From contig JAZKJH010000002.1 in NCBI GenBank assembly GCA_040384485.1, positions 22,235 to 86,234 of the forward strand: a stretch of DNA of 64,000 bases. Reading direction: 5' to 3'. Under the pieces are notes generated by a model. That model was not told the origin of the DNA. It saw only the letters and a list, made by a program, of their open reading frames with translations, and searched no databases. Below, one piece after another: positions 58,225 through 61,286 of this stretch; positions within the stretch are counted from its first letter, which is position 1; each line of letters opens with the position of its first letter. The translations under genes and the position numbers were made by a program. This stretch comes from Patescibacteria group bacterium (GTDB taxonomy: Bacteria > Patescibacteriota > Minisyncoccia > Phycocordibacterales > DATDWN01).

Positions 58225-58296
58225 GGCCTTATCGTCTAACGGTTAGGACGAAGCCTTCTCAAGGCTTAAATCCGGGTTCGATTCCCGGTAAGGTCA
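58225..58296 (+). tRNA. tRNA-Glu (anticodon CTC)
   Basis: GGCCTTATCGTCTAACGGTTAGGACGAAGCCTTCTCAAGGCTTAAATCCGGGTTCGATTCCCGGTAAGGTCA folds as a cloverleaf; anticodon loop TTCTCAA. Confidence 0.85.
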
Positions 58297-58357
58297 CATT
58301 AGAAAAATCAGATTCAGGGATAGAAAGTGAGTTGTTCTGTCAAAAATGTCAAATATA

Positions 58358-58388
58358 TATTGTTGCAAGTATGAAAGTATGCTATAAT
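58358..58388 (+). promoter_or_regulatory. Putative promoter (TTGTTG-17-TATAAT) with direct TGTCAAA repeats upstream. The ATG at 58395 lies only about 7 nt downstream, suggesting a leaderless repressor transcript.
   Basis: ctataatgg -10 box; tgtcaaaaatgtcaaa at 58338-58353. Confidence 0.35.
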
Positions 58389-58394
58389 GGAAGC

Positions 58395-59036
58395 ATGCAC
58401 AACAAACAAAAACAGCTTTTAGCTCTCATAGACACTGATCCAAACATTGGGTCATATAGCCTTAGAACAATAGCCGATAAGATTGGTGTGCCTGATAAGC
58501 CACAAATAGTGAAATACCATTTACAACAGCTTGAGAAAGCCGGAATGATTCAAATGAACCTTGAACAAGGGGTTATAAGGCCCGTAAAGCGAGGCCATGT
58601 GAAATCAACAGTTAATACCGTATTCTCACTCCCTGTGGTCGGAAGTGCAAATTGTGGTCCCGCAACAATATTTGCAGAACAAAATATTCAGCAGTATCTC
58701 AAGGTCTCGTCTTCTATGTTGCCATACAGCAAAAAAGATCTCTATTCTGTTATCGCAGACGGTAATAGTATGAATCTTGCAAAACCAGACGATAAAAATT
58801 CTATCGAAAATGGAGATTTCGTTTTAGTAGACAGTGGACACAAAAACTACAAGAACGGAGATATTGTTGTCGCTGTAATAGACGGCATGGCAACTATCAA
58901 GCGGTATAAGTATGACAAGGAAAATCAGCGCATAATACTTGAAGCAGATTCGACTGATAAGTATCTTCCGATATTTATTCACGAAGGTGATGATTTTCAG
59001 TTAAGTGGAAAAGTTGTTGGAATTATTAAAAGTTAA
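58395..59036 (+). CDS. LexA/CI-like repressor: N-terminal winged-HTH plus C-terminal S24 peptidase (self-cleaving) domain
   Basis: ...ADGNSMNLAKPDD...ENGDFVLVD...VVAVIDGMATIKRY..., with Ser in GNSM and Lys in IKRY. Confidence 0.6.
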   Translation: MHNKQKQLLALIDTDPNIGSYSLRTIADKIGVPDKPQIVKYHLQQLEKAGMIQMNLEQGVIRPVKRGHVKSTVNTVFSLPVVGSANCGPATIFAEQNIQQYLKVSSSMLPYSKKDLYSVIADGNSMNLAKPDDKNSIENGDFVLVDSGHKNYKNGDIVVAVIDGMATIKRYKYDKENQRIILEADSTDKYLPIFIHEGDDFQLSGKVVGIIKS

Positions 59037-59051
59037 TTTATTAAAACACAT

Positions 59052-59423
59052 ATGAAGAGAATATTTATCGCATTCGCTATTGAAGACAAAACATCTAGAG
59101 ATTTTTTAGTTGGTCAAGCAAAAAATGACAATTCGCCATTTGAGTTCGTTGATATGTCTGTAAAAACACCATGGGAAACGGACTGGGAATCCAAGTGCCG
59201 TACAAAGATAAAAGGTTGTGACGGTGTAATTGCACTTATTAGTAAAAATACACCTTCAGCAACAGGACAGTTGTTTGAGATCGCGACAGCAGAAGAAGAG
59301 AAAATTCCAACAATGTTGATGTACTCAACTAGTGATCGACCCACTCTTCCTTATTTTTTAAATAAACGAACCATTAATGTTTGGAGCTGGGCTAACATTA
59401 AATCGTTTTTGAGTAAACTTTAA
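59052..59423 (+). CDS. TIR-like (DUF1863/ThsB-type) protein, possibly degenerate (no Trp in the SxWxxxE-type motif)
   Basis: N-terminal RIFIAFAIEDK (compare the canonical xFISYSxxD), ...SATGQLFEIATAEEEKIP... Confidence 0.5.
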   Translation: MKRIFIAFAIEDKTSRDFLVGQAKNDNSPFEFVDMSVKTPWETDWESKCRTKIKGCDGVIALISKNTPSATGQLFEIATAEEEKIPTMLMYSTSDRPTLPYFLNKRTINVWSWANIKSFLSKL

Positions 59424-59427
59424 TATC

Positions 59428-60369
59428 ATGAGAAAAGCACTTGTAATTGGTATTAACGATTACCCAACCATTCCTCTTAGGGGGTGTATTAACGACGCCA
59501 CTGCTTTTGGCACAACAATTGAAAAAAATGGTGATGGATCTCCTAATTTTGCCGTTAAATTGGAAACTAATGTCACAACAAAGGCACAGCTAAAGACAAT
59601 GATTAGAGAGTTGTTTGAAGGTGATAGTGATATAGCTTTGTTTTACTTTTCCGGTCACGGTTTTTTTAGCGATCTTGGTGGTTTTATTGTCACACCAGAT
59701 CACCAGCAAAATGACGAAGGTGTTTCTATGGATGAAATACTTACTTTAGCAAATAAGTCGAAAGCAAAAGATAAGGTAATAATTTTAGACTGTTGTCATT
59801 CTGGAGCGTTCGGCACACCTGCGATAACTGGAAATAGCTCCTCTCAAATAATAGAGGGTGTCGTGATATTGACTGCTAGTAGACCAGCAGAAAGTGCTAT
59901 TGAAATTAATGGTCACGGTATTTTTACTAATCTGTTGATTGATGCCCTGCAAGGAGGAGCTGCAGACCTACGCGGACACATAACACCTGGCAGTGTTTAT
60001 GCCTACATCGACCAAGCTCTTGGTCCATGGGATCAACGACCAGTTTTTAAAACTAACGTCACAAGATTCACTTCTTTACGCACCATTAGTCCACAAGTAC
60101 CAATTGAAGTTTTGAGAAAAATTACTGAGTATTTTTCTGTTCCAGAACAAGAATATCAACTTGATCCAACTTATGAGTTCACCAATAAGGATGTAGCGAT
60201 TACGGAAAATGTGGTTATGCTAAAAAACTTACAGAAGTTAGTTAGTATAGGTTTAGTGATGCCTGTTGGAGAGGATCACATGTTTTACGTAGCCCAAAAT
60301 TCAAAGACCTGTAAATTAACTGCGCTCGGCTATCATTATTGGAGATTAGTTAAGGAGGGAAAAATATAA
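59428..60369 (+). CDS. Caspase-like (peptidase C14) protease with an unassigned C-terminal domain of about 120 aa
   Basis: KALVIGINDY..L.GCINDA, catalytic His in FYFSGHG and Cys in ILDCCHSGA. Confidence 0.6.
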   Translation: MRKALVIGINDYPTIPLRGCINDATAFGTTIEKNGDGSPNFAVKLETNVTTKAQLKTMIRELFEGDSDIALFYFSGHGFFSDLGGFIVTPDHQQNDEGVSMDEILTLANKSKAKDKVIILDCCHSGAFGTPAITGNSSSQIIEGVVILTASRPAESAIEINGHGIFTNLLIDALQGGAADLRGHITPGSVYAYIDQALGPWDQRPVFKTNVTRFTSLRTISPQVPIEVLRKITEYFSVPEQEYQLDPTYEFTNKDVAITENVVMLKNLQKLVSIGLVMPVGEDHMFYVAQNSKTCKLTALGYHYWRLVKEGKI

Positions 60370-60372
60370 ACC

Positions 60373-60780
60373 ATGAGACATTACAACATATTCATAAGTC
60401 ACTCTTGGGCATACAGTGATGCATATGACAAGCTTATAAAAATGCTTAACGCAGATCCTCGATTTAATTTTAAAGATTATTCAGTACCAAAGAACGACCC
60501 TATCCATAATGCGCCAAATTCTACTGCACTATCTCGAGCCATACAGGATCAGATGCGTTTTTGCGATGTTATCATTATTCTTGCTGGAGTGTATTCAAGC
60601 TACAGTGATTGGATTAATAAGGAGATCGCTCTTGCAAAAGGATTTACTAATCCAAAACCAATTCTGGCCATCGAGCCATGGGCAAGTGAAAAAACTTCGT
60701 CGGTAGTAAAGAAGAACGCAAATAGGATCGTAAAATGGAATACAAGTTCAATTATTGCAGGAATACGTGAGCTTTCGTAA
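60373..60780 (+). CDS. TIR domain protein (ThsB-like; candidate catalytic Glu in YSDWINKEIALA)
   Basis: NIFISHSWAYSD N-terminus and a SxWxxxE-type motif. Confidence 0.55.
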   Translation: MRHYNIFISHSWAYSDAYDKLIKMLNADPRFNFKDYSVPKNDPIHNAPNSTALSRAIQDQMRFCDVIIILAGVYSSYSDWINKEIALAKGFTNPKPILAIEPWASEKTSSVVKKNANRIVKWNTSSIIAGIRELS

Positions 60781-60879
60781 ATATACGAAAAATATGGAGA
60801 TATGTATTTTAACCGTCATATTGGTAAATATAGAATTTATATAGATACCATTGAAAGACATTGATCGCAGACGAAAAGC

Positions 60880-61146
60880 ATGACTAGATATAGAAAATTT
60901 AAAAAACGAAGTAGCTATTTTAAAAAAAGAGAAAATGAATTTGAAATACCCAAATGGATCTTTTACTTTTTAACCCTAACAATTTTATTTATTGTTTTTT
61001 TCTCTTTCAACTTTGTTTCTAATTGTATTATTGAATGGCCACCTAGGTGGGATGTTCGTACTTGCTGGAGTGAGCAGTTTGAACCTGCTAAAACAAAAGC
61101 AATTGAGAAATCTGCTCCATTTATGCCACAACTAAAAGTAAGGTAG
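60880..61146 (+). CDS. Small membrane protein
   Basis: Basic N-terminus followed by a TM helix; 88-aa ORF. Confidence 0.3.
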   Translation: MTRYRKFKKRSSYFKKRENEFEIPKWIFYFLTLTILFIVFFSFNFVSNCIIEWPPRWDVRTCWSEQFEPAKTKAIEKSAPFMPQLKVR

Positions 61147-61286
61147 TTCTACCAGTACCCAACCTCTCTAGGTTTGGCTCACAGGTTAAAACACTCAGAG
61201 AAATCTGGGTGTTTTAATTTATAAAAAAATCAGTTTTTTATTGACAAAAAATACCATTAACATACTATGTTTGGCAGGAGGTTCAT

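What the first reader, a model, noticed from the sequence alone, without database searches (positions are those of the whole stretch)
58225..60780. tRNA-Glu-adjacent operon: LexA/CI-like S24 repressor, TIR-like protein, caspase-like protease and TIR protein (candidate Thoeris-like anti-phage system with a caspase effector)
Four same-strand genes are packed with gaps of 15, 4 and 3 bp immediately downstream of tRNA-Glu(CTC).

Seen in sequence:
- 58395..59036 encodes a winged-HTH plus S24 peptidase repressor (the GNSM serine and IKRY lysine are present).
- 59052..59423 encodes a DUF1863/ThsB-like TIR-like protein (RIFIAFAIEDK...FEI).
- 59428..60369 encodes a caspase/C14 fold with the catalytic dyad His (FYFSGHG) and Cys (ILDCCHSGA), plus an extra C-terminal domain of about 120 aa.
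- 60373..60780 encodes a TIR domain with the hallmark NIFISHSW...YSDWINKEI motif.

Established knowledge: in Thoeris systems, ThsB TIR proteins sense infection and make a NAD-derived signal that activates a ThsA effector. Systems with several thsB genes are common. TIR-plus-caspase-like pairings have, to my recollection, been reported recently as a Thoeris variant, but I cannot verify which family this belongs to.

Inference: the TIR proteins are sensors or signal generators and the caspase-like protein is the effector. Its C-terminal domain is a plausible ligand sensor. The LexA/CI-like repressor may impose DNA-damage or phage-triggered control.

Context:
- The cassette sits at a tRNA, a classical island hot-spot.
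- It follows the dcw cluster, which is truncated after murF.
- It has native (AT-rich) composition, unlike the GC-rich islands elsewhere in the window.
Basis: partly seen in the sequence, partly recalled or inferred. Interest (0 to 1): 0.85.

Follow-up and report, generated by a model that had tools for sequence, protein, structure and literature searches.

The report
Type IV Thoeris behind mobile-element repressor

Summary

The core is type IV Thoeris, a known system (Rousset et al., bioRxiv 10.1101/2024.10.24.620036).
- Gene 2 is 41% identical over its full length to the validated PsTIR, and the catalytic Glu aligns.
- Gene 4 is 56% identical to the validated EcTIR.
- The protease is 43% identical over all 313 residues to EcCaspase, including the C-terminal domain. 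The His and Cys residues are invariant.

1. The S24 gene is not Thoeris-specific. Close homologues (57-95% identity) sit beside phage terminase, methylase and serine-integrase genes in Patescibacteria-type elements. They are followed by highly variable defence cargo: CBASS, Shedu, Thoeris types and others. The window keeps only the repressor, its promoter/operator and the cargo.
2. The second TIR's closest relatives pair with an 8xMP membrane protein. Only a 25-codon stub of that gene survives here.

Verdict: a new member of a known kind, of moderate interest. The defence hotspot next to the repressor in these elements is the more novel by-product.

The parts
58225..58297 (+). tRNA-Glu (anticodon CTC). 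It forms the left boundary of the cassette.
   Evidence: ARAGORN; Rfam tRNA 63.6 bits.
58337..58354 (.). Conserved operator-like element cTGTCAAAAATGTCAAAT, with two TGTCAAA repeats at 58338-58344 and 58347-58353. In relatives the element holds the -35 (TTGACA) of the leftward promoter of the phage-gene operon.
   Evidence: The motif GTGTAAAA(N0-2)TGTCAAA or a close variant recurs upstream of the S24 ATG, about 55 nt before it in most cases, among the 72 distinct upstream regions compared (its commonest 9-mers occur in 29-30 of them). Several loci extend it to inverted repeats (GTGTAAA-N12-13-TTTACAC or TGTCAA-N5-TTGACA).
58360..58388 (+). Predicted promoter of the operon: TTGTTG, 17 nt, TGcTATAAT (extended -10). 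The ATG follows 6 nt later, giving a leaderless-type transcript.
   Evidence: Read from the sequence. The string 'GTATGCTATAAT' is conserved in many homologous loci. The simple consensus scanner did not list it, so this is an inference.
58395..59036 (+). LexA/CI-like repressor: winged HTH plus S24 autopeptidase. It is the backbone repressor of a mobile element of Patescibacteria-type (CPR) bacteria.
   Evidence: Pfam S24 7.5e-20. TIGR00498 4.6e-24, below the cut-off. PHROG 4 'transcriptional repressor' 5.5e-21. C87-G88, S125 and K169 are invariant. Genomic context.
59052..59423 (+). thsB-1 (called 'TIRa' here): a PsTIR-type TIR signal synthase with predicted catalytic Glu76.
   Evidence: 41% identity over 123 aa to the validated PsTIR; PsTIR E79 aligns with E76. 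E76 is invariant in 37 homologues. The AF2 model matches B. cereus TIR 8fz9, TM 0.66.
59428..60369 (+). thsE: caspase-like effector protease. The caspase domain covers about residues 1-190 (H77, C123). The conserved C-terminal domain covers about residues 195-313 and is the putative N7-cADPR sensor.
   Evidence: Pfam C14 6.5e-20. 43% identity over the full length to EcCaspase. Invariant residues. Foldseek matches caspases and MALT1. The C-terminal domain occurs almost only at the C-end of 310-340 aa proteins, and the four longer proteins checked also carry a caspase domain.
60373..60780 (+). thsB-2 (called 'TIRb' here): an EcTIR-type TIR with predicted catalytic Glu84.
   Evidence: ThsB_TIR 1.1e-16. 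56% identity to the validated EcTIR. The ISHSW motif and E84 are invariant in 13 homologues.
60787..60864 (+). Remnant (25 codons plus a stop) of an 8xMP membrane-protein gene.
   Evidence: tblastn of the L001 and L164 8xMP proteins: residues 16-39 match at 46% identity, E 1.9e-4. The stub is in the same position as the intact gene in L001 (TIRa-CASP-TIRb-8xMP).
60880..61146 (+). ORF88, a small predicted membrane protein of unknown role.
   Evidence: A 53%-identical homologue lies in the cargo region after S24 in L226. There is no Pfam, PHROG or PADLOC family match.
61186..61217 (+). Hairpin (14-nt arms, 4-nt loop) that probably ends the cassette. The cmk promoter follows.
   Evidence: Inverted repeat I15. 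The cmk promoter TTGACA-16-TACTAT is at 61241-61268.

Best explanation
Genes 2-4 are a type IV Thoeris abortive-infection system.

Proposed mechanism:
- On phage infection a ThsB TIR protein converts NAD+ into a cyclic ADP-ribose isomer. This is TIRa (PsTIR-type, Glu76) and possibly also TIRb (EcTIR-type, Glu84). In the characterised systems the isomer is N7-cADPR.
- The signal binds the conserved C-terminal domain of the caspase-like protease ThsE (His77/Cys123).
- ThsE then cleaves cellular proteins promiscuously after arginine and stops phage replication at the cost of the cell.

Gene 1 is not part of Thoeris. It is the LexA/CI-like, self-cleaving repressor of a family of roughly 10-kb phage- or satellite-like integrative elements of Patescibacteria-type (CPR) bacteria. 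In these elements the slot directly downstream of the repressor gene is a hotspot for interchangeable defence cargo. The cargo is most likely co-transcribed with the repressor from its leaderless-type promoter, as lambda rexAB is with cI.

In this window only the repressor, its operator/promoter and the cargo remain, abutting tRNA-Glu. The rest of the element is absent. A second effector gene (8xMP) that accompanied TIRb has decayed to a stub.

What is shown: homology, architecture, conserved catalytic residues and genomic context. What is inferred: the signal chemistry, the protease specificity and the regulation.
For: Homology to validated components:
- The PsTIR and EcTIR sequences come from Table S2 of Rousset et al..
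- TIRa is 41% identical to PsTIR over 123 aa, with E79 aligned to E76. TIRb is 56% identical to EcTIR.
- EcCaspase was recovered from E. coli strain 165. The window caspase is 43% identical to it over residues 1-313, including WDQRPVFKTN in the C-terminal domain.
- H77 and C123, plus the C-terminal residues W201, Q203, R204, P205, F207, K208, N210 and R218, are invariant across phyla.
- Folds: caspase and MALT1; B. cereus Thoeris TIR.
- The caspase homologues in loci L016 and L048 are 64-71% identical to the window caspase. They come from the Arenibacter echinorum DSM 23522 and Algoriphagus faecimaris DSM 23095 genomes, which Table S1 lists as type IV Thoeris with an 'additional TIR'. The table also lists Parcubacteria genomes.

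The repressor as element backbone:
- Twelve Patescibacteria-type loci have S24 directly upstream of TIRa-CASP, and two more have it divergent.
- To its left, on the other strand, lie c7 (a conserved ~136-aa protein of unknown function), a ParB-methylase (phrog_498, 3e-82), TerS and TerL (phrog_38, 9e-80). A large serine integrase (phrog_95, 1e-59) and a D5-like primase are also present.
- After 69-88%-identical S24 genes the cargo is CBASS, TIR+8xMP, a Schlafen-like protein or Shedu.
- In 80 metagenome loci, 158 cargo genes fall into 63 clusters rich in known defence families.
- A conserved operator and promoter are found upstream of the S24 genes.

Against: - There is no functional data for this locus.
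- All regulation statements are inferred from sequence. The operator element has not been shown to bind the repressor. In the window's own subclade it appears as a direct repeat, without an obvious second inverted arm.
- The presence of a decayed gene (the 8xMP stub) and the loss of the element's left arm show that the locus is eroding, so the remaining genes could be on their way to inactivation, although all four ORFs are intact.
- Which TIR signals to the caspase here, and whether the signal is N7-cADPR in this distant lineage, is unknown.
Confidence: 0.85

Rival explanations
1. The S24 protein is a dedicated damage-responsive switch for Thoeris, analogous to CapH/CapP in CBASS. It represses the operon, and RecA-stimulated self-cleavage during infection induces the TIR and caspase genes.
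For: The gene is co-oriented with TIRa and only 15 nt upstream, with no terminator between them. The cleavage site Cys-Gly and the Ser/Lys dyad are invariant. The arrangement recurs in 12 or more loci.
Against: The same repressor family precedes CBASS, Shedu, Schlafen-like and many other cargoes, so it is not Thoeris-specific. The conserved element is centred about 49 nt upstream of the predicted start, outside the core of the rightward promoter. It overlaps the -35 of the leftward phage operon. That geometry fits repression of the phage genes, not of the cargo.
Confidence: 0.25
2. The S24 gene is the host's own chromosomal LexA, and the Thoeris genes merely inserted next to it.
For: It aligns over its full length to the TIGR00498 lexA model, E 4.6e-24. 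JGI annotators call homologues 'LexA'.
Against: - The score of 85 bits is below the 111-bit equivalog cut-off.
- Homologues are flanked by terminase, phage methylase and serine integrase genes in many unrelated genomic positions.
- A second, only distantly related S24 class replaces it in front of a 91%-identical caspase in L001.
Confidence: 0.07
3. TIRb is a functional second sensor of the type IV system, widening the range of phages sensed. It is not a leftover of a TIR-8xMP pair.
For: - EcTIR-type TIRs are the only TIR next to ThsE in many loci and viral contigs, and EcTIR with EcCaspase is a validated system.
- Table S1 lists many type IV systems with an additional TIR.
- TIRb is intact, with the ISHSW motif and Glu84 conserved.
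Against: Its closest relative aligned (L164) sits beside 8xMP with no caspase present. L001 has the order TIRa-CASP-TIRb-8xMP. The window keeps an 8xMP stub right after TIRb. The two readings are not exclusive.
Confidence: 0.45
4. The cassette is a decaying, non-functional remnant of a mobile element.
For: The element's left arm and integrase are absent from the whole 64-kb window. The 8xMP gene is reduced to a stub.
Against: All four ORFs are full length with every catalytic residue intact. The DNA is 82% identical to L001 over 1742 nt without frameshifts. The promoter and operator are retained.
Confidence: 0.12

Closest known systems
Type IV Thoeris (ThsB TIR + ThsE caspase-like protease; Rousset et al., bioRxiv 10.1101/2024.10.24.620036; nomenclature from Yirmiya et al., 10.64898/2025.12.03.692087)
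   Same: - A short TIR gene lies next to a ~313-aa caspase-like protease with the same C-terminal domain.
- Identity is 41-56% to both validated TIRs and 43% to EcCaspase.
- The catalytic Glu, His and Cys are conserved.
- An 'additional TIR' is common in the published list, and the list includes Parcubacteria genomes.
   Different: - This locus carries both validated TIR subtypes, one on each side of the protease. Only 3 of 80 genome loci do so.
- It is preceded by a LexA/CI-like repressor gene.
- It carries the stub of a second putative effector (8xMP).
- The host is a Patescibacteria (CPR) bacterium.
Lambda cI-rexA-rexB (defence genes co-transcribed with the prophage repressor from a leaderless promoter)
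   Same: An S24 self-cleaving repressor gene is followed directly by abortive-infection genes on the same strand. The predicted transcript is leaderless. The operator region is shared with a divergent phage operon in relatives.
   Different: There is no sequence relationship to rexAB. The element has terminase, methylase, serine integrase and primase genes, but no structural genes were seen. In the window the phage part is missing.
Defence hotspots of P2-like prophages and P4-like satellites (Rousset et al. 2022, PMC9122126)
   Same: A fixed slot between conserved backbone genes of a phage-related integrative element holds highly variable anti-phage cargo (63 gene clusters among 158 genes).
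   Different: The backbone is unrelated, the host phylum is different, and the hotspot lies immediately downstream of, and co-oriented with, the repressor gene.
CapH/CapP- and CapW/BrxR-type regulators of defence operons
   Same: A DNA-binding regulator is encoded at the head of a defence operon, with a protease-based release mechanism.
   Different: This one has a fused LexA-type wHTH-S24 architecture. It is linked to the mobile-element backbone rather than to one defence family.

Membership tests
Type IV Thoeris | Effector with a caspase-like (C14) domain carrying the His/Cys dyad | tested here: met
   Pfam C14 6.5e-20. H77 and C123 are invariant. Foldseek matches caspase-6 and MALT1 at probability 1.0.
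Type IV Thoeris | Effector carries the ThsE-specific C-terminal domain (putative N7-cADPR sensor) | tested here: met
   43% identity to EcCaspase through residue 313. The domain is modelled at pLDDT 85-94. It gives 622 representative hits, almost all at the C-end of 310-340 aa proteins; the four longer ones checked also carry a caspase domain.
Type IV Thoeris | Adjacent short TIR protein with a catalytic Glu, homologous to PsTIR or EcTIR | tested here: met
   TIRa is 41% identical to PsTIR, with E79 aligned to E76. TIRb is 56% identical to EcTIR, with E84 conserved.
Type IV Thoeris | TIR and caspase genes within one gene of each other (the published detection rule) | tested here: met
   The gaps are 4 and 3 nt. 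The rule was read.
Type IV Thoeris | The TIR makes N7-cADPR, which activates arginine-specific promiscuous proteolysis | not testable with these tools
   This needs LC-MS/NMR and protease assays.
Type IV Thoeris | Confers phage resistance by abortive infection | not testable with these tools
   This needs expression in a host and phage challenge.
LexA (TIGR00498 equivalog) | Score above the curated equivalog cut-off | tested here: not met
   85.1 bits against a cut-off of 110.95.
LexA (TIGR00498 equivalog) | N-terminal wHTH plus S24 domain with Ser/Lys dyad and a cleavage site | tested here: met
   The alignment covers residues 3-212 against model positions 6-200 of 203. S125, K169 and C87-G88 are invariant. 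The site is Cys-Gly, as in UmuD (from my own knowledge), not Ala-Gly.
LexA (TIGR00498 equivalog) | Host chromosomal SOS regulator in a stable housekeeping context | tested here: not met
   Homologues sit beside terminase, methylase and integrase genes in varied locations.
Phage/satellite CI-like S24 repressor | Divergently transcribed from a phage-gene operon, with a shared conserved operator | tested here: met
   Met in relatives. In the window only the operator, the promoter and the repressor remain.
Prophage/satellite defence hotspot | Conserved backbone flank with highly variable, defence-rich cargo | tested here: met
   63 clusters among 158 cargo genes. Families found include CBASS, Thoeris, Shedu, Lamassu and Pycsar.
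Type I / type II Thoeris | SIR2-SLOG (ThsA) or Macro-TM effector next to the TIR | tested here: not met
   No such domain was found in the cassette.
TIR + 8xMP pair (uncharacterised) | Intact 8xMP membrane-protein gene next to the TIR | tested here: not met
   Only a 25-codon stub remains at 60787-60864.

The most novel reading that the evidence does not exclude
The S24 repressor marks a previously undescribed family of roughly 10-kb satellite- or prophage-like integrative elements in Patescibacteria-type (CPR) bacteria. Their backbone is a large serine integrase, TerL, TerS, a ParB-methylase, sometimes a D5-like primase, and the LexA/CI-like repressor. Their defence hotspot lies directly behind, and is co-transcribed with, the repressor gene. 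This would make it a major route by which these tiny-genome episymbionts exchange CBASS, Thoeris, Shedu and unknown systems. The many unannotated cargo clusters, and the TIR-8xMP pair, would then be candidate new defence systems.
Probability: 0.45. Interest if true: 0.6.

Novelty: new member of a known kind. Interest (0 to 1): 0.4.

Why it matters
The Thoeris part adds little beyond confirming that type IV Thoeris, with both validated TIR subtypes, occurs in CPR bacteria.

The context is more useful. It shows that a LexA-like gene at the head of a defence operon can be a mobile-element backbone gene rather than a component of the system. It also points to a conserved anchor, the S24 gene plus its operator. 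That anchor could be used to harvest defence cargo, including many unannotated gene clusters, from uncultured Patescibacteria, and to ask how abortive-infection systems are expressed in organisms with minimal genomes.

Tried and rejected
- Sequence search of the PDB with the caspase and both TIRs. It gave only distant metacaspase and MTH538 hits and no solved ThsE.
- A viral-contig scan with the single S24 protein found nothing. The caspase alignment did find about 40 viral contigs, but none has an adjacent S24.
- Search for att-type direct repeats of the tRNA 3' end. Only a 15-nt, 13/15 repeat was found at 58300-58314 and 61222-61236. It flanks the cassette but could be chance in AT-rich DNA.
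- Test of variable presence at this site. Look-ups of the exact flanking proteins (cmk and the 200-aa protein) returned only the same organism, so nothing could be concluded.
- Comparison of the tRNA-to-S24 spacer with L004, which has a similar layout next to tRNA-Glu(TTC). There is no similarity beyond the tRNA.
- A literature search for '8xMP', and for Patescibacteria defence hotspots, found nothing specific.
- Rejected: host LexA (see the rival explanations).
- Rejected: type I or type II Thoeris, because no SIR2-SLOG or Macro effector is present.
Full report
**Observation**

ARAGORN and Rfam place tRNA-Glu(CTC) at 58225-58297. Four + strand ORFs follow at 58395-59036, 59052-59423, 59428-60369 and 60373-60780, separated by 15, 4 and 3 nt.

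Profile searches give the following:
- ORF1: Peptidase_S24 (7.5e-20), plus a full-length but sub-threshold match to the LexA model TIGR00498 (85 bits against a cut-off of 111).
- ORF2: only sub-threshold TIR matches.
- ORF3: Peptidase_C14 (6.5e-20).
- ORF4: ThsB_TIR (1.1e-16).

The description is therefore accurate. One detail is not: the window shows no GC-rich islands at 2-kb resolution, with GC at 36-42% throughout.

**What the core is**

Rousset et al. (bioRxiv 10.1101/2024.10.24.620036) described type IV Thoeris. A short TIR protein senses infection and makes N7-cADPR. [quoted passage not shown]

Their Table S2 gives the cloned operons. Translating them and comparing with the window gives these results:
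- ORF2 ('TIRa') is 41% identical to PsTIR over the whole 123 aa. The mutated catalytic Glu79 of PsTIR aligns with Glu76.
- ORF4 ('TIRb') is 56% identical to EcTIR.
- I recovered EcCaspase from E. coli strain 165, where the pair sits in a lambdoid prophage between the Q antiterminator and the holin gene. The window protease is 43% identical to it over all 313 residues, including the C-terminal domain.

Across 23 homologues from many phyla, H77 and C123 are invariant. So is a C-terminal set: W201, Q203, R204, P205, F207, K208, N210 and R218.

The AlphaFold models support the folds:
- The protease model matches caspase-6, MALT1 and caspase-4/-7 at probability 1.0. No ThsE structure has been solved.
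- The TIRa model best matches the B. cereus Thoeris TIR, 8fz9.

The C-terminal domain on its own finds 622 cluster representatives. Almost all lie at the C-end of 310-340 aa proteins, and the four longer proteins checked all carry a caspase domain.

Loci L016 and L048 come from the Arenibacter echinorum DSM 23522 and Algoriphagus faecimaris DSM 23095 genomes. Their caspase homologues are 64-71% identical to the window protein. Both genomes are listed as type IV Thoeris with an 'additional TIR' in Table S1, which also lists Parcubacteria genomes. Membership of type IV Thoeris is thus met on every sequence-level criterion. Chemistry and phenotype cannot be tested here.

**Distribution**

The protease has more than 7800 close homologues. 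Eighty genome loci span Patescibacteria, Bacteroidota, Bacillota, Desulfobacterota, Spirochaetia and an archaeon at 53-91% identity.
- The PsTIR-type TIR is the commonest partner, often in two copies.
- The EcTIR-type TIR occurs in a minority of loci.
- Only L001, L072 and L074 have both types.
- About 40 IMG/VR viral contigs carry full-length ThsE with one TIR.

**The S24 gene**

In the 80 genome loci an S24 gene directly precedes TIRa-CASP only in Patescibacteria-type loci. It is on the same strand in twelve and divergent in two. Two only distantly related S24 classes occur. L001 combines a 91%-identical protease with the other class.

To the left of S24, on the opposite strand, most loci carry four genes:
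- a conserved ~136-aa gene, called c7 here;
- a ParB-N6/N4 methylase (phrog_498, 3e-82);
- a small terminase subunit;
- a large terminase subunit (phrog_38, 9e-80).

Wider views add a large serine integrase (phrog_95, 1e-59), a nuclease and in one case a D5-like primase. No capsid or tail genes were seen within roughly 10 kb.

S24 proteins 69-88% identical to the window's are followed by quite different cargo:
- CBASS (SAVED plus a cyclase);
- DUF2188 + TIR + TIR + 8xMP;
- a Schlafen/AlbA_2 protein;
- Shedu.

A metagenome scan with an S24 alignment gave 80 loci.
- Where enough DNA is present, the left arm is usually conserved.
- The 158 same-strand downstream genes fall into 63 clusters.
- Cluster representatives hit CBASS cyclases, SAVED, Cap15, S_4TM, patatin, E1-E2, ThsB_TIR, ThsA_Macro, 8xMP, SduA, LmuA, PycTM and others.

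The S24 gene is therefore a backbone gene of a phage- or satellite-like element, and the slot behind it is a defence hotspot. It is not a Thoeris component, and it is unlikely to be the host LexA.

None of the other backbone genes is present anywhere in the 64-kb window. The window holds only the repressor, its control region and the cargo, abutting the tRNA.

**Control region**

Among the 72 distinct upstream regions compared, the motif GTGTAAAA(N0-2)TGTCAAA or a close variant recurs, in most cases about 55 nt before the S24 ATG. Its commonest 9-mers occur in 29-30 of the regions.
- In several loci the motif is part of an inverted repeat, GTGTAAA-N12-13-TTTACAC or TGTCAA-N5-TTGACA.
- Read on the other strand, its TGTCAA is a consensus -35 (TTGACA) correctly spaced from a -10 and the c7 start. 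In L005 this reads TTGACA-17-TACAAT-6-ATG.
- The window keeps the motif at 58337-58354.
- It is followed by TTGTTG-17-TGcTATAAT, with the ATG 6 nt later. This is a leaderless-type arrangement.

The motif is centred near -49 of the rightward promoter and overlaps the leftward one. The simplest reading is that the repressor shuts off the phage operon while the repressor-cargo operon stays on, as with lambda cI-rexAB. This is an inference. The alternative, a damage-inducible switch for the cargo, is not excluded.

The repressor looks cleavage-competent: C87-G88, S125 and K169 are invariant.

**The second TIR**

- The closest relative of TIRb among those aligned (L164) lies next to an 8xMP membrane-protein gene, with no caspase present.
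- L001 has the order TIRa-CASP-TIRb-8xMP.
- The window is 82% identical to L001 at the DNA level from 59039 to 60780.
- Immediately after TIRb, at 60787-60864, the window encodes a 25-codon stub matching 8xMP residues 16-39 (46% identity, E 1.9e-4).

So the window once carried a second putative effector that has since decayed. TIRb may now be an orphan, or it may serve the caspase, as EcTIR-type TIRs do elsewhere.

ORF88 (60880-61146) has a 53%-identical homologue in another element's cargo. Its function is unknown.

**Limits**

- Variable presence at this exact site could not be tested. Exact-protein look-ups of the flanks return only the same organism, and that short-read assembly breaks at the tRNA.
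- A 13/15 direct repeat flanks the cassette at 58300-58314 and 61222-61236, but it may be chance.
- All functional statements rest on homology.

**Verdict**

This is a bona fide type IV Thoeris locus, a new member of a known kind, embedded in the remnant of a mobile-element defence hotspot. The role assigned to the repressor and the unity of the four genes are revised. Interest is moderate. The hotspot anchored on the repressor in Patescibacteria-type elements is the lead most worth following.

Noticed in passing
L082 (2327-12159), L164, L165, L166, L163, and L167-L246: A family of roughly 10-kb integrative elements in Patescibacteria-type contigs. The backbone is a large serine integrase, TerL, TerS, a ParB-methylase, a ~136-aa gene and a divergent LexA/CI-like repressor. 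Very diverse defence cargo lies directly behind the repressor. No capsid or tail genes were seen, so the elements look satellite-like.
   Followed up: partly
L164:8277-9225, L183:6863-7771, L190, L001:5946-7148: TIR genes paired with an 8xMP (PF24838) membrane-protein gene and no caspase. This is a possible Thoeris-type system with a membrane effector. I found no paper mentioning 8xMP in this sense.
   Followed up: partly
P0440 (836 aa), P0499 (1017 aa): The ThsE C-terminal domain also occurs in a single-chain fusion, TIR_2 + TPR + caspase + C-terminal domain, and in a protein with two caspase-like regions.
   Followed up: partly
L004, L007, L009, L164, L166, L189, L243, L245 and others (first gene after S24): A small gene often sits between the repressor and the cargo: DUF2188 (17 loci) or one of two other 66-84-aa families (12 and 10 loci). 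Yirmiya et al. list DUF2188 as a putative Thoeris effector. Here it precedes non-Thoeris cargo too (Shedu in L166).
   Followed up: no
window 58300-58314 and 61222-61236: An imperfect 15-nt direct repeat (13/15) lies just after the tRNA and just after the terminal hairpin, so it brackets the whole cassette. It may be an insertion scar or chance.
   Followed up: no
L081 (E. coli strain 165, NZ_CP020509.1 3886579-3887956): The validated EcTIR-EcCaspase pair sits as a moron (accessory prophage gene) between the Q antiterminator and the holin gene of a lambdoid prophage. It is present in 14 of 5426 complete E. coli genomes.
   Followed up: partly
L004:3526-4998: This is a second case of a tRNA-Glu (anticodon TTC) followed after about 126 nt by an S24 gene (the other class), DUF2188, TIRa and the caspase. 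It also lacks the terminase arm.
   Followed up: partly
L247 / L248 (Logan SRR26324625): An independent short-read assembly of the same organism breaks between the 93-aa ORF and the S24 gene, at the tRNA. This could reflect strain variation or a repeat at this junction.
   Followed up: no
window 1-64000: GC content is 36-42% in every 2-kb bin.
   Followed up: partly
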